DNA of 64,000 bases, taken from IMG/VR virus record IMGVR_UViG_3300035490_000050, positions 72,455 to 136,454 of that record. One strand, given 5' to 3'. This DNA comes from a virus. The position numbers and the translations under genes were made by a program. The notes beneath the pieces were generated by a model. It made no database searches, was not told the DNA's origin, and saw only the letters and a program-made list of their open reading frames with translations. Shown here in pieces: positions 24,493 through 31,499 of the stretch (the stretch's first letter is position 1; each line of letters opens with the position of its first letter).

Positions 24493-24567
24493 GGGGGTGT
24501 AGTGACAATGAGAACACGTCCCGTTTGCACCGGGAAAATCGGAGTTTGAATCTCCGCATCTCCACCA
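24493..24567 (+). tRNA. tRNA-Ala(TGC)
   Basis: G3.U70, loop TT-TGC-AC, ACCA. Confidence 0.9.
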
Positions 24568-24654: not shown

Positions 24655-24728
24655 CAGGGAATAGTGTAGTGCTAACATCCGTGTTTTGGGCACACGTGTC
24701 CGGGGTTGGAATCCCCGTTCCCTGACCA
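24655..24728 (+). tRNA. tRNA-Pro(TGG)
   Basis: C1-G72, loop TT-TGG-GC, ACCA. Confidence 0.9.
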
Positions 24729-24733
24729 TTTTT

Positions 24734-24808
24734 CAACCCGTCGTTCAACGGAAAGGACGATGCGCTACGAACGCATAAATGGGGATTCGACTTCCTCCGG
24801 GTTGACCA
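24734..24808 (+). tRNA. tRNA-Arg(ACG)
   Basis: Loop CT-ACG-AA, ACCA. Confidence 0.92.
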
Positions 24809-24844
24809 TAGTTCGCAAGCACGAAATAAAGTTGAAAATAATGC

Positions 24845-24873
24845 TTGCAAATGTCTGGAATGTGTAGTAGGCT
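24845..24873 (+). promoter_or_regulatory. sigma70-type promoter of Y-like RNA / HNH / TROVE operon
   Basis: TTGCAA-17-TAGGCT. Confidence 0.7.
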
Positions 24874-24902
24874 TGATTTCGTTGGGTTTTGAAACACAGG
24901 TT

Positions 24903-25027
24903 TGCGTCTACTGTTGAGCGTACATGATGACTAGCTCACTCGGTAGAGCGATTCCCTTCAAAGGAATAGGTCACTGGTTCGATTCCAGTGTCATCTACTT
25001 CGGTAGATCGCTCAACGTCTTGACGCA
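24903..25027 (+). ncRNA. Y-RNA-like RNA 1: outer stem with TACT/GTCTT loop enclosing a cloverleaf (anticodon TCA) and a UUCG hairpin
   Basis: TGCGTC/GACGCA and GTTGAGCG/CGCTCAAC stems; cloverleaf 24926-24995. Confidence 0.75.
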
Positions 25028-25033
25028 GTAAAT

Positions 25034-25151
25034 TTGGGTGTAATTTTCGGCTTACATGAGCCTGTTTGGTCAGGCACTTGCCGTTGGAGCAAACTAACCC
25101 GGTTCGATTCCGGGATGTTACCCGAAAGGGTTGCCGAGAGACTTCACCCAA
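25034..25151 (+). ncRNA. Y-RNA-like RNA 2: same architecture as RNA 1
   Basis: TTGGGTG/CACCCAA, TAAT/GACTT loop, TTTCGGC/GCCGAGA, D, anticodon and T arms, GAAA hairpin. Confidence 0.72.
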
Positions 25152-25159
25152 TAAGTTGT

Positions 25160-25277
25160 GGGGGACCGCTTAGTAAACCGAGGACGACTTCTCGGAAACG
25201 AGTACGGTTCTAGGATACATGACAAGCATACAGCCGAAAGGCTGTGTATCGTGGCTAAACACCACGGTCCTCCACCA
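25160..25277 (+). ncRNA. tRNA-like RNA 3 with Ala-type acceptor (G3.U70, ACCA) and Y-like loop
   Basis: GGGGGAC/GTCCTCC-ACCA; AGGAC-GACTT-CTCG-gaaa-CGAG-TACG-GTTCT. Confidence 0.68.
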
Positions 25278-25298
25278 AAGTTTTGTAGTACAAGTTGT

Positions 25299-25419
25299 GG
25301 CGGGTTAGCAAAACGGAAAAGCTCTGCATGTCTTGACGCGCAATCGTCTATTTTGCAGGTTACATGCACATTCACTCGGAGAATGCACAATCTAGGTTCG
25401 ACTCCTAGACCCGCCACCA
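25299..25419 (+). ncRNA. tRNA-like RNA 4 with CCA end, anticodon loop replaced by Y-like loop
   Basis: GGCGGGT/ACCCGCC-ACCA, D arm, CTGCA-t-GTCTT-GACG-cgcaat-CGTC-TATT-t-TGCAG, V-arm, canonical T arm. Confidence 0.75.
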
Positions 25420-25628
25420 TAAGATTTACCGCATGGGAGTGCGGAAACGAGTTTGGCTGACACTGGTTTCGTGGATACATGTTTTTGGGGATCATATCCC
25501 CACCCCCCGCCTAAGCCCTTTGGCAACGGAGGATTTAGGCGGGGGTTCTGAGGGCCGCAAGGCTGCTTAGAAAACAATTGCCCACAACCGACTTTCAGCC
25601 ACTATTTTTGTGCCTTGGGAGAGGGAAT

Positions 25629-26189
25629 ATGGCCAGCGGTGATCGTTTCTACATGCTATCCTTGCGCCATCGCCCTGCGGTGTACGGCGATCTCGGAAAC
25701 ATCCTCAAAATCGAAGGTTTGGTGGTAGGCGGAGAAGGGGCGCATGTAATTCTTACGCTTCCCTCTTCCGATCTAAAAACTGATACCTACTGGGATGCTA
25801 ATACATTCCCAGCAATTCATCAGTTATCCCTTGAGGAGTGGACCGATTTTCTAGCGCGTACTGACGATCCAGAAATTCTAATCGGTCAAGCGAAGGCTTT
25901 CCATCGCAAATGCCGTTATGAAATTTCAGGGGCGGTACAGCAGAAGATATGGGTAGCTGATGGTCTAAAGTGCATGTACTGCGGAGTCAGGATGGGCAGG
26001 GCACAACTCACAGTGGACCATTGGGAATCGCTTGAGGCTGGTGGAAAGAACGATAGCTCAAATTTTCTCGCAGCCTGCAAGACGTGTAATAAGGCCAAAG
26101 GTTCCATGCCGCCGCGTGACTGGTGCAGCCTTCGCAAAATTGATTACGACTTCTTTGTGGAGTATCTGAGAACGAGGAAGTTGCCTTAA
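25629..26189 (+). CDS. HNH endonuclease-domain protein
   Basis: DGLKCMYCG, LTVDH, GG....NFLAACKTCNKAKG. Confidence 0.85.
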   Translation: MASGDRFYMLSLRHRPAVYGDLGNILKIEGLVVGGEGAHVILTLPSSDLKTDTYWDANTFPAIHQLSLEEWTDFLARTDDPEILIGQAKAFHRKCRYEISGAVQQKIWVADGLKCMYCGVRMGRAQLTVDHWESLEAGGKNDSSNFLAACKTCNKAKGSMPPRDWCSLRKIDYDFFVEYLRTRKLP

Positions 26190-26217
26190 CACTTTTCGCA
26201 CCGGGAGGGCGAATACT

Positions 26218-27711
26218 ATGGCAGAAACAGGGCTTACACGTCAAAGAATTTTGTCGGAATTGTCGAAGAGTCCACACGGCTCTTTGAAAGAGTATCTTCC
26301 TATCGGCAAACAGGCCGTTCAACAGGAAGGTGAATTTTATCAACACATGCTTGCCTGGGATAGGACGCATGGGCAGATTAGGGACAGCAAGGTTGCGCTT
26401 CCTGTGATCGGCTTGGCTTTTGAGAAGGATGAGGAATTACTCGACAACAGCCTTGCTCACATCGCTCTTTTGGGGCCGCGTGAACTGGCAAGAGCATATC
26501 GGTTTGGATTGGAGATTCGTCTCCCTGGCAAGATGCGTCAGTTGCGTAGGCTTGTCGAAGACTACCTACACCAAAAGGAGCAAGACAAAGGTTGGGATCA
26601 TCTGGCAATCCAGCACAGGGGTACGCTGAAGGAACTCTACTCTCTGGCGCACGCAAAGCCTGAAAAGGAGAGAACCAACGTCGTTCTCTATGGCAGGAAC
26701 TTCGACAAGACAAAGGCACCGCTGCCCAAGGGATCAGTCTTTGAGGTAGTAGCAAACCTCAAGAACATGAGTCCTACGGAGGCTGCTGGTTCGATCATGA
26801 AGTACCGGATTCCTTTCCTTATCGCCATGGGCGCGTTAGGCGCAAAGGCGAAGGAGCCGGATTTGGTACTGGCTTTGATCGGAGCCATGTCTGCAACGGA
26901 GTTGACCACGAACGTCAAGATGCTGGAGAAGTTGGGCCTGAAGACGAATCCTGCGCTGCGTGGGGCATTCGACAACGCATTGGCTAAGGCGGCTACGTCG
27001 AAGAAGAATACGCTCAAGACGACTCAGGCGGTCGAGGCCGTACAGGACGAGGGATTGAAGGAGAAGCTCCGTGGACTACAGGCAAAGCAGATAGCGGCTG
27101 CGGGTGGTCCAGACGGCGACTGGGTAATTTTAGTTGACAAATCTGGATCGATGCACCATGCAATCGAAACTGGTTGCCATGTTGCAGGGGCGCTCACACA
27201 GTTCGTCAAAGGAAAGGTTGGGTTGATTTTCTTCGATACCTCTCCTATGGCGGTGGACGTAACCGGCTTGTCGCTGGACCAAATCAAGAAGGCGACACGA
27301 CACTTCACAGCGAACGGTGGAACATCCATCGGCTGCGGTCTGAATCGGATGCTGGTAGAGAAAGTTGCTGTGGATGGAATTGTGATCGTGTCGGACGGTG
27401 GAGACAACACTGCTCCACTATTCCATGACGTATATCCGAAGTACGCGAAATTCTGCGATAAGGATGTGCCGGTGTATTTCTACCAACTTAGCGGAGAATC
27501 GGACAAGCTGACGCCGAACATGCAACGGGCAGGAATCGAGATGACAACATTCGATTTGCGCGGTTCAAAGCTGGACTACTACAGCATTCCGAACACGGTC
27601 AAGACGCTTCGCAGTAACCAGTACAGTTTGGTTGAGGAAATACTCTCGACCCCGCTTTTAACCCTCAACACCGTGCTCAAGGGAGCGCAGAAAGGACTGG
27701 TGACAGTCTAA
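26218..27711 (+). CDS. TROVE/Ro60-like protein with C-terminal VWA domain
   Basis: Helical N-terminal domain (IRDSK.ALP, LKELY..AH.KP, MSATEL..N...LEK.G), MIDAS VDKSGSM, GGTSIG, IVIVSDGGDN; adjacent Y-like RNAs. Confidence 0.78.
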   Translation: MAETGLTRQRILSELSKSPHGSLKEYLPIGKQAVQQEGEFYQHMLAWDRTHGQIRDSKVALPVIGLAFEKDEELLDNSLAHIALLGPRELARAYRFGLEIRLPGKMRQLRRLVEDYLHQKEQDKGWDHLAIQHRGTLKELYSLAHAKPEKERTNVVLYGRNFDKTKAPLPKGSVFEVVANLKNMSPTEAAGSIMKYRIPFLIAMGALGAKAKEPDLVLALIGAMSATELTTNVKMLEKLGLKTNPALRGAFDNALAKAATSKKNTLKTTQAVEAVQDEGLKEKLRGLQAKQIAAAGGPDGDWVILVDKSGSMHHAIETGCHVAGALTQFVKGKVGLIFFDTSPMAVDVTGLSLDQIKKATRHFTANGGTSIGCGLNRMLVEKVAVDGIVIVSDGGDNTAPLFHDVYPKYAKFCDKDVPVYFYQLSGESDKLTPNMQRAGIEMTTFDLRGSKLDYYSIPNTVKTLRSNQYSLVEEILSTPLLTLNTVLKGAQKGLVTV

Positions 27712-28010
27712 TGAATATCAACGCACTGAAGAACTTCAACGCCGACCGTATGGACTTGGATGACATGGTAGGCTTGCTTGCGGACTGCAAGGCACTCCGC
27801 GCTGAGTACGAGGCGCTCCAGATCGAAGAGCCTGAGTATATCGACACAACCATCAAGGCAATTCGCCGGGAGATCACATCCCGCAACGCTGACAAGATCG
27901 CGGCTCGTAAGCGTGAGCTTGCCGCACGGATCGACAGCCTCAAGACTCCTGCACAGAAGAAGGCAGAACTTGAGAAGGAGCTTGCCAAGTTGGAAGCCGT
28001 TCCTGTCTAA
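27711..28010 (+). CDS. Small coiled-coil protein coupled to TROVE gene
   Basis: TAATG overlap; charged helical sequence. Confidence 0.7.
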   Translation: MNINALKNFNADRMDLDDMVGLLADCKALRAEYEALQIEEPEYIDTTIKAIRREITSRNADKIAARKRELAARIDSLKTPAQKKAELEKELAKLEAVPV

Positions 28011-28677: not shown

Positions 28678-28700
28678 TTCGAGTCCTAGTGGGGGCACCA
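28678..28700 (+). pseudogene. Orphan tRNA 3' fragment
   Basis: TTCGAGTCCTAGTGGGGGCACCA with no matching 5' half. Confidence 0.55.
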
Positions 28701-28704
28701 TAGT

Positions 28705-28791
28705 GGAACCGTGGCCTAGTCTGGTTTTGGGCACCCGGCTCTTACCCGGCGCAGAAATGCAACGCAGGTTCAAATCCTGCCGGTTCCACCA
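28705..28791 (+). tRNA. tRNA-Lys(CTT) with long variable arm
   Basis: Loop CT-CTT-AC; V-arm GCA-gaaa-TGC; ACCA. Confidence 0.88.
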
Positions 28792-28801
28792 ACACTTTTA
28801 C

Positions 28802-28887
28802 GGAGTCGTACTCGAATTGGATGCAGAGACCTGACTTTTAATCAGCGGGGTAACCCAATGGGGGTTCGAGTCCCCCCGGCTCCACCA
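28802..28887 (+). tRNA. tRNA-Lys(TTT) with long variable arm
   Basis: Loop CT-TTT-AA; V-arm GGG-gtaa-CCC; ACCA. Confidence 0.88.
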
Positions 28888-30250: not shown

Positions 30251-30531
30251 TGAGCCTCCAGAAGTTTCCTGTATTTCTTTTCTTCCTCTGCGCCGTGGAT
30301 TACCCGAATCGTTTTCATGCAATCCTCGTATCGACCAGGAGTTCCTTCCCATGTTTTGTCATCGTCTGCGCGTTGAACTTTCTCTTCCGATCCCTTCGGT
30401 CCAAGATCGTATTCGTCCACACAATACTTGACCGCTTCTTCTCTTGTGGCGTTGTACATAACGAAATGGTCTACGGGGTCGGAGAAAGCTGCATACTTAC
30501 CGTTGGGGGTCTTGACTATCCTGTGGGCCAT
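30247..30531 (-). CDS. Hypothetical protein
   Basis: TAATG coupling to ligase. Confidence 0.65.
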   Translation of the reverse strand: MAHRIVKTPNGKYAAFSDPVDHFVMYNATREEAVKYCVDEYDLGPKGSEEKVQRADDDKTWEGTPGRYEDCMKTIRVIHGAEEEKKYRKLLEAQ

Positions 30532-31499
30532 TACGACTTCTCCATATAACTGTTGCCCACGAGCTTCAAGTGGACCCGTCCAAGGTGTTCATGTATGCGC
30601 TCAGGTAAAGGCCGTACTACGATTCCTTCGCGGATATGGTTTGCGCCAGGAATTAGGCTAGGACCGTCAGATAACTTTACAAGCATATTAAAGTCGAACG
30701 GACCACCAAAGACGACAGGAACTCGCTTCTCTTCGGATAAATGAGCGGTCCAGTCATCGTATTCTCTCCATTCCCCGTTATGAAGCACATCGAAAGCGCG
30801 GAAGAAAACATCGTTGGGTTTAGCTCCGTACTTGAGGCTCTGCACGTTTCCGAAGACTTCCCCATAGAGAATATCGCTAGGAAACTTACGGCAGAATTCC
30901 TCAATCCACGGATGCTTTTCTAGCGCTCTCCACCATAGATTCCCCTCGTTCTTTGCCTTCCACTCGCCACGGCTACCGCAGTACATCCGGTTCTCTTCTG
31001 GCGCATAGACGAACCTGCTATTGGCTCCGTGAATCTTCTCGGTCGCAACGACCGGCTCCCCTTCCACGAATAGACTCTTGTAGCGGTACATTGACTCTAC
31101 GTCGTACTTTGGAGCGTAAAGGCCGATAGGACCACCTTCCACTTCACCGCAGCGCTCTCCGGGGATTGGAGGCTCGTAGTGAGTTACTCCGTAGTATTCA
31201 GCAACGTCATCCCCTTCCTGTGCGCCTTCGGGCGCTGGCATAAGCAGCCCCATAGAAACTACGCCGCGCAACTTCTTGACCTTGATGCGCTCGTGCCCTA
31301 CCAGAAAATCGAACTCAGGACGTGTCGAGTCCACAACAGAATCAGGTTGAATGTAAGCAGCCAATTGGCCGTCAACAAATGATCCTTTGAGGACGCAGCA
31401 AGTGAATCCGAATATACGGGCAACGTCAAGCCTTTCCGCGTTGCCGTGGGGTTCAATTTTCACTCGCACAACTTCTACCTTATGCGTCTGCTCTGCCAT
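30531..31499 (-). CDS. ATP-dependent RNA ligase, DRB0094/Rnl5 type
   Basis: N-terminal OB (IEPHGNAERL, KLRGVVSMGL), motif I TEKIHG, LYGEVFG, AFDV, REGIVV, LKL. Confidence 0.92.
   Translation of the reverse strand: MAEQTHKVEVVRVKIEPHGNAERLDVARIFGFTCCVLKGSFVDGQLAAYIQPDSVVDSTRPEFDFLVGHERIKVKKLRGVVSMGLLMPAPEGAQEGDDVAEYYGVTHYEPPIPGERCGEVEGGPIGLYAPKYDVESMYRYKSLFVEGEPVVATEKIHGANSRFVYAPEENRMYCGSRGEWKAKNEGNLWWRALEKHPWIEEFCRKFPSDILYGEVFGNVQSLKYGAKPNDVFFRAFDVLHNGEWREYDDWTAHLSEEKRVPVVFGGPFDFNMLVKLSDGPSLIPGANHIREGIVVRPLPERIHEHLGRVHLKLVGNSYMEKS

What the first reader, a model, noticed from the sequence alone, without database searches (positions are those of the whole stretch)
25160..25419. Potentially aminoacylatable anticodon-less RNAs
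Seen: RNA 3 has G1-C72, G2-C71, G3.U70, A73-CCA (AlaRS identity set) in 118 nt with no tag ORF. RNA 4 has D, V and T arms and A73-CCA, with the Y-like loop where the anticodon should be. Established: AlaRS and LeuRS largely ignore the anticodon. Inference: charged RNA-Ro complexes could act in codon-independent ribosome rescue or as decoys.
Basis: inference. Interest (0 to 1): 0.7.

Follow-up and report, generated by a model that had tools for sequence, protein, structure and literature searches.

The report
CCA-ended tRNA mimics beside phage Ro60
A soil/peat phage encodes, inside its tRNA gene array and just upstream of a Ro60-like gene, small tRNA-shaped RNAs that carry a Ro-type binding module and a free CCA end, and one of them keeps the full alanine-charging signature, so the old question of whether Ro-associated RNAs can be charged with an amino acid becomes testable.

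Summary
Both RNAs are real. RNA 3 (25160-25277) and RNA 4 (25299-25419, one base earlier than given) fold as described. They belong to two conserved, covarying families found upstream of a Ro60-fold gene in 35 of 59 related phage contigs that hold enough upstream DNA.

RNA 3-type RNAs keep G1-C72, G2-C71, G3.U70, G4-C69 and A73 while neighbouring pairs covary. G3.U70 is present in 17 of 18 unique members, and ACCA is encoded in 15 of 18. The window copy has a GAAA tetraloop hairpin in place of an anticodon loop. Alanylation by host AlaRS is therefore plausible but untested.

RNA 4 is not really anticodon-less. Its "V arm" has anticodon-arm geometry, and 12 of 14 relatives carry CAU-A there. 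A73 is not conserved (U in 12 of 14), so the LeuRS idea is not supported.

Compared with known YrlA Y RNAs, which are permuted, have a closed acceptor stem and lack a free CCA, these RNAs have tRNA order, an open acceptor stem, an encoded CCA and an internal Y-like module. They are a new variant of a known kind.

Ribosome rescue is unsupported. A tether or decoy role is inference. The scan had already noted this stretch and its neighbours.

The parts
25160..25277 (+). RNA 3: a 118-nt alanine-type tRNA mimic. Acceptor 5' strand 25160-25166; Y-like module 25178-25214; UACAUG 25216-25221; 8-bp GAAA-tetraloop hairpin 25228-25249; T arm 25250-25266; acceptor 3' strand 25267-25273; A73 25274; CCA 25275-25277.
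   Evidence: Sequence; fold; covariation on A4; model R1 scores 120.1 bits.
25299..25419 (+). RNA 4: a 121-nt tRNA-like RNA. Acceptor 25299-25305 with 25409-25415; U8 A9; D region 25308-25322; Y-like module 25324-25358; UACAUG 25361-25366; anticodon-arm-like hairpin 25369-25385 (loop ACUCGGA 25374-25380); T arm 25392-25408; A73 25416; CCA 25417-25419.
   Evidence: Sequence; constrained folds; covariation on A6; model R2 scores 107.6 bits; loop table.
25150..25159 (+). Conserved U-rich 5' leader (AAUAAGUUGU) before G+1 of RNA 3. RNA 4 has a similar leader at 25289-25298. Both resemble the leaders of the window's tRNA genes.
   Evidence: A4 nearly invariant columns A5 T7 G9 T10; tRNA leaders listed.
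24903..25027 (+). An open-ended Y-like stem (UGCGUC/GACGCA and UGAGCG/CGCUCA) encloses a complete tRNA(UCA) at 24925-24997 that lacks CCA.
   Evidence: ARAGORN and Rfam tRNA calls. It is the only one of 28 tRNAs without CCA. Stem read.
25036..25150 (+). An open-ended Y-like stem (GGGUG/CACCC and CGGC/GCCG) encloses a tRNA-like module with the T arm CCCGG-UUCGAUU-CCGGG and a GAAA-tetraloop hairpin that covaries in L003.
   Evidence: Read. Weak tRNA-Sec-like Rfam match at 25050-25122 (14.9 bits).
25629..26189 (+). 186-aa HNH-domain protein lying between the RNAs and the Ro gene.
   Evidence: Pfam HNH 1.1e-09. A homologue lies within 1.5 kb upstream of Ro in 32 of 56 loci with enough upstream DNA. 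Alignment A8 shows 58-76% identity.
26218..27711 (+). 497-aa Ro60-like protein (helical-repeat ring plus vWA domain), the presumed partner of the RNAs.
   Evidence: AF2 model pLDDT 79.9. Foldseek PDB ranks 1-12 are all Ro60/TROVE over the full length (E 7.6e-11 to 1.3e-6, TM 0.54-0.63). Pfam finds only VWA.

Best explanation
RNA 3 and RNA 4 are two members of a conserved family of phage small RNAs built like tRNAs in the normal 5'-to-3' order. Each has an open 7-bp acceptor stem, a T arm and a genome-encoded N73-CCA. Each also carries an internal two-helix module of the Y-RNA type: a proximal stem, an internal loop with (G)ACUU on one strand and UA(C/U) on the other, a distal hairpin, and then an invariant UACAUG.

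They lie inside the phage's tRNA array with tRNA-like leaders. They are therefore most likely cut out of the same transcripts by host RNase P and 3' trimming (inferred). They are most likely bound through the Y-like module by the Ro60-fold protein encoded about 0.8 kb downstream (inferred from linkage and from the precedent of Y RNAs).

RNA 3 has no anticodon but keeps the complete acceptor-helix identity set of AlaRS. It is probably charged with alanine by the host enzyme (inferred; my odds are about 50-60%).

RNA 4 derives from a tRNA(CAU)-like gene into which the module was inserted next to or within the D arm. Whether it is charged, and by which enzyme, cannot be told.

The likely role of the tRNA half is to plug the Ro particle into, or shield it from, tRNA-handling proteins such as aaRS, EF-Tu, 3' exonucleases or host tRNA-targeting nucleases. 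That makes it a tether or a decoy, not a ribosome rescuer.
For: Structure and conservation: RNA 3-type alignment A4 (14 sequences) has 86.3% of cells paired, 15 of 24 pairs with double changes, and 0 of 500 shuffles as high. RNA 4-type alignment A6 (17 sequences) has the acceptor 99.2% and the T arm 100% paired. Model R1 finds matches of >= 80 bits in the window and 20 of 89 loci, including 5 loci not used for training (L042, L043, L044, L045, L060). R1 finds 0 matches at E <= 1e-4 in 850,475 bases of unrelated viral DNA that all contain TACATG...CCTCCACCA.

Alanine set: G1-C72 in 13 of 14 (the odd row is a register shift), G2-C71 in 14 of 14, G3.U70 in 14 of 14, G4-C69 in 14 of 14. Among 18 unique members, 17 have U70, all 18 have A73 and 15 have ACCA. 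G3.U70 occurs in 1 of 28 window tRNAs, the tRNA-Ala.

tRNA-type processing context: 27 of 28 window tRNAs encode CCA and have similar U-rich leaders. U at -1 is nearly invariant.

Ro partner: Foldseek ranks 1-12 are Ro60/TROVE. RNAs were found upstream of the Ro gene in 35 of 59 loci with >= 1200 nt of upstream DNA. They were also found in a huge-phage record whose Ro is only 32% identical.

Precedent: M. smegmatis YrlA is cut by RNase P and receives CCA in vivo, and its authors write that it 'could potentially be aminoacylated' (PMC4201824, section 8 and discussion passages).

Presence in RNA libraries: short contigs from four metatranscriptome runs cover 24835-25473. This is weak evidence, because DNA carry-over is not excluded.

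Recalled, not from a call: AlaRS charges acceptor minihelices that carry G3.U70 and A73-CCA, and does not need the anticodon.
Against: There is no direct evidence of charging, of mature ends or of Ro binding. The RNA runs were available only as contigs, which cannot show ends.

The Ro-binding motif defined for bacterial Y RNAs (GNCGAAN0-1G; PMC4201824) is not present as such, and no Rfam Y RNA family matches.

The alanine set is not universal. L044 has G3-C70. L045 ends A-UCA, and L042 and L060 end ACCU. The homologues in the distant huge-phage record encode no CCA.

The window's RNA 3 T loop (CUAAACA) is not a canonical T loop, and RNA 3 has no D-loop GG, so the elbow is probably not tRNA-like. 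This may matter for EF-Tu or for the AlaRS C-terminal domain.

G3.U70 could be retained simply because the acceptor stem was copied from the phage's tRNA-Ala (5' GGGGGUG).

The phage encodes no AlaRS, SmpB or CCA-adding enzyme, so everything depends on an unknown host.
Confidence: 0.55

Rival explanations
1. Uncharged tRNA mimics. The RNAs are Ro-bound Y-like RNAs whose tRNA-shaped half and CCA end serve only for processing and stability, or as bait for tRNA-binding proteins such as host anticodon nucleases or CCA-end-modifying toxins. They are never aminoacylated in vivo.
For: Encoded CCA is simply the rule for this phage's tRNA genes (27 of 28), so it need not signal charging. Distant homologues lack CCA and some RNA 3-type members lack CCA or U70. 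RNA 4-type keeps CAU-A while position 33 varies (U 5, G 3, C 2, A 2 of 12). That pattern fits recognition by a protein rather than decoding. Chen et al. proposed protection from exonucleases as a role for the tRNA fold (PMC4201824 discussion).
Against: An uncharged decoy does not explain why the G3.U70 wobble and the surrounding 1:72, 2:71, 4:69 pairs and A73 stay fixed while pairs 6:67 and 7:66, the T stem and the Y module all covary. A G.U pair is one transition away from G-C.
Confidence: 0.3
2. Interrupted tRNA precursors. The Y-like module is an intervening sequence that is excised and the halves re-joined, for example by the DRB0094-type RNA ligase at 30531-31499. In that case RNA 4-type genes would yield ordinary tRNA(CAU).
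For: In RNA 4-type the module is flanked by a repeated AUGC, so either copy can close a D stem with G10-C11-A12. Removing the module would leave a canonical cloverleaf with a 5-bp anticodon stem, a 7-nt loop and a 4-5-nt variable loop. An RNA ligase gene lies 2.8 kb downstream of Ro (TIGR02306, 165.8 bits against a cut-off of 151.15).
Against: RNA contigs are colinear with the genome across RNA 4 (25278-25473) and no joints were reported, although contigs cannot exclude a rarer spliced form. U33 is absent in 7 of 12 CAU loops. RNA 3 has a tetraloop, so no tRNA could result from it. The module is itself conserved and covaries like a functional element (7 of 8 and 3 of 4 pairs with double changes). 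The ligase was not found in the flanks of the related loci, but those flanks may be too short.
Confidence: 0.06
3. A minimal tmRNA-like ribosome-rescue RNA. Ala-RNA 3, with or without Ro, enters stalled ribosomes independently of codons.
For: The acceptor end resembles a tmRNA tRNA-like domain (G3.U70, A73-CCA, no D stem). Read; conserved.
Against: There is no tag reading frame and no pseudoknots. The Rfam tmRNA model does not match RNA 3, even when E <= 1 is allowed over the whole phage record, and ARAGORN calls no tmRNA. The phage encodes no SmpB. A Ro ring on the arm that would have to enter the decoding centre is a steric problem (inference).
Confidence: 0.03
4. Not functional RNAs. The region holds decaying tRNA pseudogenes, or is part of a protein-coding ORF (25158-25460 on the + strand, 100 aa; or 25118-25495 on the - strand, 125 aa).
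For: The mechanical ORF list shows both frames open in the window.
Against: The open frames are not kept in relatives. Over the homologous stretch plus 200 nt on each side, the longest stop-free run in any of the six frames ranges from 81 to 133 codons across 8 loci. Compensatory changes in four helices and indels that are not multiples of three fit structured RNA.
Confidence: 0.02

Closest known systems
YrlA-type bacterial and phage Y RNAs (S. Typhimurium YrlA; M. smegmatis YrlA)
   Same: Encoded next to a Ro60 gene, often several per locus. Modular: a Ro-type helix-internal loop-helix element plus a tRNA-like domain with a T arm. M. smegmatis YrlA even acquires an open acceptor stem and CCA after RNase P cleavage (PMC4201824).
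   Different: YrlA is a circularly permuted tRNA. Its ends lie in the Ro-binding stem, its acceptor stem is closed by a loop, and it 'lacks a free CCA end' (bioRxiv 10.1101/312249). Here the order is that of a tRNA: the acceptor stem is open, CCA is genome-encoded, and the Y-like module is an internal hairpin. The motif is GNC-UA(C/U) with ACUU opposite, followed by UACAUG, not GNCGAAN0-1G. No Rfam Y RNA family matches. The two sister RNAs at 24903-25150 do keep the open-ended stem.
tmRNA tRNA-like domain
   Same: G1-C72, G2-C71, G3.U70, A73-CCA, a T arm and no D stem. Charged by AlaRS without an anticodon (recalled).
   Different: 118 nt long, with no tag ORF and no pseudoknots. No match to the Rfam tmRNA model and no ARAGORN call. 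No phage SmpB. It carries a Y-like module and sits beside a Ro gene.
tRNA-Ala and alanine minihelices
   Same: A 7-bp acceptor stem with G3.U70 stacked on a T stem, then A73-CCA. The first five 5' bases are the same as in the window's own tRNA-Ala (24493-24564).
   Different: No anticodon arm (a GAAA tetraloop hairpin instead), no D arm, and a non-canonical T loop in the window copy.
Yrl1/Yrl2 of Thermus phage phiLo with phiRo60 (PDB 9KOP, 9L5Y)
   Same: Phage-encoded Ro60 with Y-like RNAs just upstream. phiRo60 is the best structural match of the window's protein (E 7.6e-11).
   Different: Yrl1/2 are described as 5'-3' stem RNAs with a CGAA bulge (PMC12135203 passages). No tRNA-like domain, CCA end or charging is mentioned in the passages read.

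Membership tests
Y RNA (bacterial/phage, YrlA-like) | Encoded adjacent to a Ro60/TROVE gene | tested here: met
   The Ro60-fold ORF 26218-27711 lies 0.8-0.9 kb downstream (Foldseek ranks 1-12 are Ro60/TROVE). The Pfam TROVE model itself does not hit. RNAs were found upstream of Ro in 35 of 59 loci.
Y RNA (bacterial/phage, YrlA-like) | Ro-binding helix with the conserved GNCGAAN0-1G strand, or a match to the Rfam Y RNA models | tested here: not met
   No Y RNA family at E <= 10. The module has GNC followed by UA(C/U) rather than GAA (read). It is a covarying helix-loop-helix of similar shape.
Y RNA (bacterial/phage, YrlA-like) | 5' and 3' ends paired in the Ro-binding stem; acceptor-like stem closed by a loop (permuted tRNA) | tested here: not met
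   In RNA 3 and RNA 4 the module is a closed hairpin and the acceptor stem is open with CCA. The neighbours at 24903-25027 and 25036-25150 do have the open-ended stem.
Y RNA (bacterial/phage, YrlA-like) | Physical binding to Ro60 | not testable with these tools
   No RNA-protein docking or binding assay is available.
tmRNA | tRNA-like domain with G3.U70 and ACCA | tested here: met
tmRNA | mRNA-like domain with a tag ORF and pseudoknots; match to RF00023 or an ARAGORN call | tested here: not met
   ARAGORN calls none. In the phage record, RF00023 hits only two long tRNA-Lys genes below threshold, not RNA 3. At 118 nt there is no room for a tag frame.
AlaRS substrates (tRNA-Ala identity) | G3.U70 in a 7-bp acceptor helix with A73-CCA (plus G2-C71 and G4-C69) | tested here: met
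   14 of 14 aligned members. Of 18 unique members, 17 have U70 and 15 have ACCA.
AlaRS substrates (tRNA-Ala identity) | Actual aminoacylation with alanine | not testable with these tools
   Needs an in vitro charging assay or an acid gel.
Type II tRNA (Leu/Ser/Tyr), as proposed for RNA 4 | Long variable arm between the anticodon stem and the T stem; A73 for LeuRS | tested here: not met
   The hairpin is 5 bp with a 7-nt loop, is followed by a 4-6-nt linker, and carries CAU-A in 12 of 14 members. N73 is U in 12 of 14.
Canonical tRNA (RF00005) | Match to the tRNA covariance model or a tRNA finder call | tested here: not met
   Neither RNA 3 nor RNA 4 is called by ARAGORN or Rfam. The roughly 45-nt inserted module breaks the cloverleaf spacing.

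The most novel reading that the evidence does not exclude
These phages make a set of Ro60-bound, aminoacylated tRNA mimics of different identities: an alanine type (RNA 3), a CAU/Met-like type (RNA 4 family), a type with a U1-A72 Gln-like acceptor stem (L039:1766-1897, L040:2021-2152), and possibly an Arg-like switch in the window's RNA 4 (loop UCG, A73, G2-C71). Ro particles would then be loaded onto, or act as charged decoys for, specific aaRS, EF-Tu or tRNA-targeting defence proteins. This would be the first charged Y RNA and a new way for a virus to interfere with host tRNA biology.
Probability: 0.2. Interest if true: 0.88.

Novelty: new variant of a known kind. Interest (0 to 1): 0.68.

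Why it matters
Ro60 and Y RNAs occur from bacteria to humans, yet what the tRNA-like half of bacterial Y RNAs does is unknown. The published YrlA RNAs lack a free CCA end, so the idea that a Y RNA might be aminoacylated has stayed a side remark about one mycobacterial RNA.

Here a whole clade of uncultured soil and peat phages encodes Y-like RNAs in tRNA order with an encoded CCA. One sub-family has the alanine identity set under visible purifying selection.

That gives a short, defined RNA that can be tested with a simple assay: an in vitro transcript, AlaRS and labelled alanine, with a natural G3-C70 variant (L044) as control.

If it is charged, Ro biology becomes linked to aaRS and EF-Tu. 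The finding would also add a new class of viral tRNA mimic to the current picture of phage tRNA arrays as counter-measures against host tRNA-directed defences.

Tried and rejected
Rfam at gathering and at E <= 10 gave no named family for either RNA.

Sequence searches did not name the 497-aa protein. Pfam found VWA only, NCBIfam found nothing, and PDB phmmer found nothing. Only the fold search identified it.

blastn of 24900-27800 against cultured-phage records hit only a tRNA-like stretch. tblastn of Ro found two uncultured records, so no host can be named.

A loose pattern scan of viral contigs (TACATG, gap, CCTCCACCA) was badly chosen. R1 found nothing at E <= 1e-4 in 100 of its 119 loci, and the other 19 were not searched. 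I use it only as a specificity control.

The metatranscriptome runs were available only as contigs. They show presence of 24835-25473 in four RNA libraries, but no ends, no strand and no expression level. The lack of cover over 24700-24810 and 25477-25624 is not interpreted.

Complex prediction for Ro plus the HNH protein gave no verdict (score 0.00). It counts neither for nor against binding.

The promoter/terminator scan showed nothing useful on the + strand.

The RNA ligase ORF was not found in the flanks of related loci, but those flanks may be too short.

I considered an 'identity switch to arginine' in the window's RNA 4 (UCG loop, A73, A after GG in the D loop). A at that D-loop place also occurs in CAU members (L024, L042, L048, L060), and only one lineage has the UCG loop, so it stays speculation.

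I could not decide between two pairings of G10-C11-A12 in RNA 4-type. One is local, with AAUGC. The other is with the UGC of UACAUGCA, which would put the module inside the D loop. Both partners are invariant, so covariation says nothing. The local stem is only 81% paired.

The Annual Review on bacterial Ro (PMC10870794) is not held. Supplementary tables of PMC4201824, which list phage YrlA candidates, could not be seen and may already contain related RNAs.

Correction: an earlier count gave 25056-25061 for the second UACAUG. The right place is 25053-25058.
Full report
**What the window is.** The window is the right-hand 64 kb of a 136,454-base virus record that CheckV rates as complete. ARAGORN finds 31 tRNA genes between 17222 and 29525, all on the + strand, and no tmRNA. 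Rfam confirms 28 tRNAs. The array is interrupted by HNH ORFs. The finding lies in a 600-nt stretch between a tRNA called 'SeC(tca)' (24925-24998) and an ORF pair at 25629-26189 and 26218-27711.

**The neighbouring protein is a Ro60.** Sequence methods do not name the 497-aa product. Pfam sees only a VWA domain at residues 301-401. PHROGs gives a weak 'RNA-binding protein' family (3.9e-6). PDB phmmer finds nothing and NCBIfam finds nothing.

- An AlphaFold2 model built on 32 homologues has pLDDT 79.9 and pTM 0.61.
- It matches Ro60/TROVE structures over its full length at Foldseek ranks 1-12. These include Thermus phage phiLo Ro60, human, Xenopus and Deinococcus Ro (E 7.6e-11 to 1.3e-6, TM 0.54-0.63). 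From rank 14 on, the matches cover only the VWA part.
- The family is large: 727 proteins at E <= 0.001 among the 8000 candidates scored.
- It has no cultured relative. tblastn against 50,697 phage records found two uncultured records, the best at 32% identity.

**RNA 3.** The MFE fold (-47.5 kcal/mol, z -4.84, 0 of 200 shuffles as good) gives these elements:
- an acceptor stem stacked on a T arm;
- a short stem GCUU/AAGC that encloses a two-helix module (proximal stem 25178-25185 with 25207-25214, internal loop, distal CUCG-GAAA-CGAG hairpin);
- an 8-bp hairpin closed by GAAA.

There is no anticodon loop and no room for a tag frame.

I collected 89 loci around homologues of the Ro gene: 9 from viral contigs and 80 from metagenome contigs, the best 80 of 179 confirmed. 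Fourteen distinct RNA 3-type sequences were aligned with their leaders (A4). On a structure that I wrote from the window copy:
- 86.3% of cells pair, against 70.5% in column shuffles;
- 15 of 24 pairs show changes on both sides;
- 0 of 500 shuffles reach the observed values;
- sliding the partners by 1-3 columns drops pairing to 35.7-58.5%.

The shuffle control does not correct for relatedness. The slid control does, but it is biased toward a structure derived from one member.

A covariance model (R1) then found matches of >= 80 bits in the window and 20 of 89 loci. Five of these loci were not in the training set (L042, L043, L044, L045, L060). R1 found none at E <= 1e-4 in 850,475 bases of unrelated viral contigs that all contain the two end motifs.

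**The alanine signature is under selection.** In A4, pairs 2:71, 3:70, 4:69 and 5:68 are invariant (G-C, G.U, G-C, G-C in 14 of 14). Pair 1:72 is G-C in 13 of 14, and the odd row is a register shift in L040. Pair 6:67 alternates A-U (6), G-C (6) and G-U (1). The T stem and both helices of the module covary freely.

Among the 18 unique RNA 3-type sequences:
- 17 have U70; L044 has C70;
- all 18 have A73;
- 15 end ACCA; L045 ends A-UCA, and L042 and L060 end ACCU.

In the window, G3.U70 occurs in 1 of 28 tRNAs, the tRNA-Ala. That AlaRS needs little more than this acceptor helix, and charges minihelices and tmRNA, is established knowledge that I recall and did not check in a call.

The hairpin in the anticodon position is not conserved. 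It is a GAAA or UUCG tetraloop in most members, a 7-nt loop of varying sequence in a few, and absent in L048. RNA 3-type RNAs really are anticodon-less.

**RNA 4.** The acceptor stem is GGCGGGU/ACCCGCC, so the RNA spans 25299-25419. Seventeen relatives align well (A6). The acceptor stem is 99.2% paired with 4 of 7 pairs changed on both sides, and the T arm is 100% paired with 4 of 5. T loops are canonical (UUCGACU, UUCAAUU and similar).

It is preceded by CA and followed by 4-6 nt before the T stem. That is the geometry of an anticodon arm plus a short variable loop.

- With the hairpin read as a 5-bp stem, 12 of 14 unique main-group members have CAU at loop positions 3-5, followed by A. The window's own tRNA-Met loop is UUCAUAA.
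- The position before the triplet is U in 5, G in 3, C in 2 and A in 2.
- The two exceptions are L039 and the window copy, whose loop is ACUCGGA.
- N73 is U in 12 and A in 2 (the window and L027).
- CCA is encoded in 14 of 14.

RNA 4-type RNAs therefore look like descendants of a tRNA(CAU) gene that received the Y-like module next to the D region. The module is flanked by a repeated AUGC. G10-C11-A12 can pair either with the local copy, giving a normal D arm (81% paired, no covariation), or with the UGC of the invariant UACAUGCA, which would place the module inside the D loop. RNA 3 of the window has the analogous GCUU/AAGC stem. I lean toward the second reading for both RNAs but cannot decide it. 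The LeuRS argument (A73, long V arm) does not survive either reading.

**The shared module.** The same element occurs five times on the + strand within 600 nt. It consists of a proximal stem, an internal loop with (G)(A/U)CUU on one strand and UA(C/A/U) on the other, and a distal stem, always followed by (A/U)UACAUG. The UACAUG copies lie at 24921-24926, 25053-25058, 25216-25221, 25361-25366 and 25476-25481.

- In the RNAs at 24903-25027 and 25036-25150, the distal stem is formed by the RNA's own ends and the tRNA-like part hangs off the proximal stem. This is the classical Y RNA arrangement. The first of these encloses a complete tRNA(UCA), the only one of 28 tRNAs without CCA.
- In RNA 3 and RNA 4 the strand order is inverted and the distal stem is closed by a loop.
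- In RNA 3-type the proximal and distal helices covary (7 of 8 and 3 of 4 pairs with double changes).

The motif differs from the GNCGAAN0-1G strand that defines bacterial Y RNAs (PMC4201824). Binding to the divergent Ro is therefore an inference from shape, repetition and linkage. RNAs matching R1 or R2 (>= 100 nt, E <= 0.001) lie within 2.5 kb upstream of the Ro gene, on the same strand, in 35 of the 59 loci that have >= 1200 nt of upstream DNA. The 24 loci without such RNAs are mostly those with Ro identity below 57%, and the models may simply not reach them. In the huge-phage record LR756511.1 (Ro 32% identical), R2 still finds two RNAs of the same build 2-4 kb upstream (52.1 and 31.8 bits). 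Neither encodes CCA.

**Processing context.** Twenty-seven of 28 window tRNAs encode CCA. Their leaders are U-rich and often read AGUUUU or AGUUGU before +1, as do the leaders of RNA 3 and RNA 4 (leader columns nearly invariant in A4). No promoter-like or terminator-like site separates the RNAs from the array on the + strand. Release by RNase P and 3' trimming is the economical assumption, but it is not shown.

Short contigs from four metatranscriptome runs cover 24835-25473 colinearly with no joints. Contigs cannot show ends, and DNA carry-over is not excluded.

The phage record encodes no CCA-adding enzyme, SmpB or AlaRS. The tmRNA model hits only two unusually long tRNA-Lys genes, below threshold.

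**Comparison with the literature.** I read passages and section 8 of Chen et al. 2014 (PMC4201824), passages of the YrlA structure preprint (10.1101/312249), of the phiLo Ro60 paper (PMC12135203), of the jumbo-phage survey (PMC7824862) and of a Listeria phage study (PMC12282133), and the abstract only of a 2026 tRNA-mimic preprint.

- YrlA RNAs are described as circularly permuted tRNAs with a closed acceptor stem and no free CCA.
- M. smegmatis YrlA is the exception. It is cut by RNase P and receives CCA, and the authors note that it 'could potentially be aminoacylated' but think this unlikely to be general.
- I found no description of Y-like RNAs in tRNA order with an encoded CCA, or with an alanine identity set, in four full-text searches.

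**Verdict.** RNA 3 is a strong candidate for an alanine-accepting, anticodon-less, Ro-linked RNA. RNA 4 is a tRNA(CAU)-derived mimic whose window copy has lost CAU, and its charging is an open question. Rescue of ribosomes is unlikely. A tether, protective or decoy role is the best guess. This is a new variant of the Y RNA/tRNA-mimic theme, and it comes with a cheap decisive experiment.

Noticed in passing
window 24903-25027: A complete tRNA with anticodon UCA (24925-24997) sits inside an open-ended Y-like stem with an extra UUCG hairpin. It is the only one of 28 tRNAs without an encoded CCA. In L002 the homologous caged tRNA has anticodon UGU.
   Followed up: partly
window 25629-26189: The HNH protein between the RNAs and Ro is not a sporadic homing gene. 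A homologue (50-96% identity) lies within 1.5 kb upstream of Ro in 32 of 56 loci, and 29 of those loci also hold R1/R2 RNAs. Its HNH domain is closest to Cas9/IscB-type HNH domains.
   Followed up: partly
window 25440-25560: A fifth, partial Y-like module (GGCUGAC...GUGGAUACAUG) is followed by a hairpin and a 12-bp G+C-rich stem-loop. In relatives (L006:~2700-2777, L030, L038, L039, L041, L076) the corresponding RNA of about 60 nt ends in CCCUCCACCA, a mini form with a short stem and a CCA tail.
   Followed up: no
window 28705-28791 and 28802-28887: The two tRNA-Lys genes are 86-87 nt long. They are the only places in the phage record that match the tmRNA model, below threshold (30 and 26 bits). 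R1 also gives a weak hit at 28681-28794.
   Followed up: no
window 30531-31499 (- strand): An RNA ligase of the Deinococcus DRB0094 family (TIGR02306, 165.8 bits against a cut-off of 151.15) lies 2.8 kb downstream of Ro. It was not seen in the flanks of related loci.
   Followed up: partly
L039:1766-1897 and L040:2021-2152: Further module-bearing, CCA-ended tRNA mimics with a U1-A72, G2-C71, G3-C70 acceptor stem, like the window's tRNA-Gln. Their anticodon-like loops are UGUCAAA and AUUACAA. The family therefore mimics several tRNA identities.
   Followed up: no
L039:902-1028: This RNA 3-type gene is followed by a second CCA (ACCACCA).
   Followed up: no
L214:2949-3089 and 770-912 (record LR756511.1): A 595-kb uncultured phage with a Ro only 32% identical has RNAs of the same architecture upstream of Ro, but without an encoded CCA (N73 is followed by CUUGA). 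One has a UUCG tetraloop in the anticodon position.
   Followed up: partly
L010 versus window: In the closest relative (Ro 97% identical), the gap between the HNH gene and Ro is about 660 nt, against 28 nt in the window. There is an insertion there that I did not examine.
   Followed up: no
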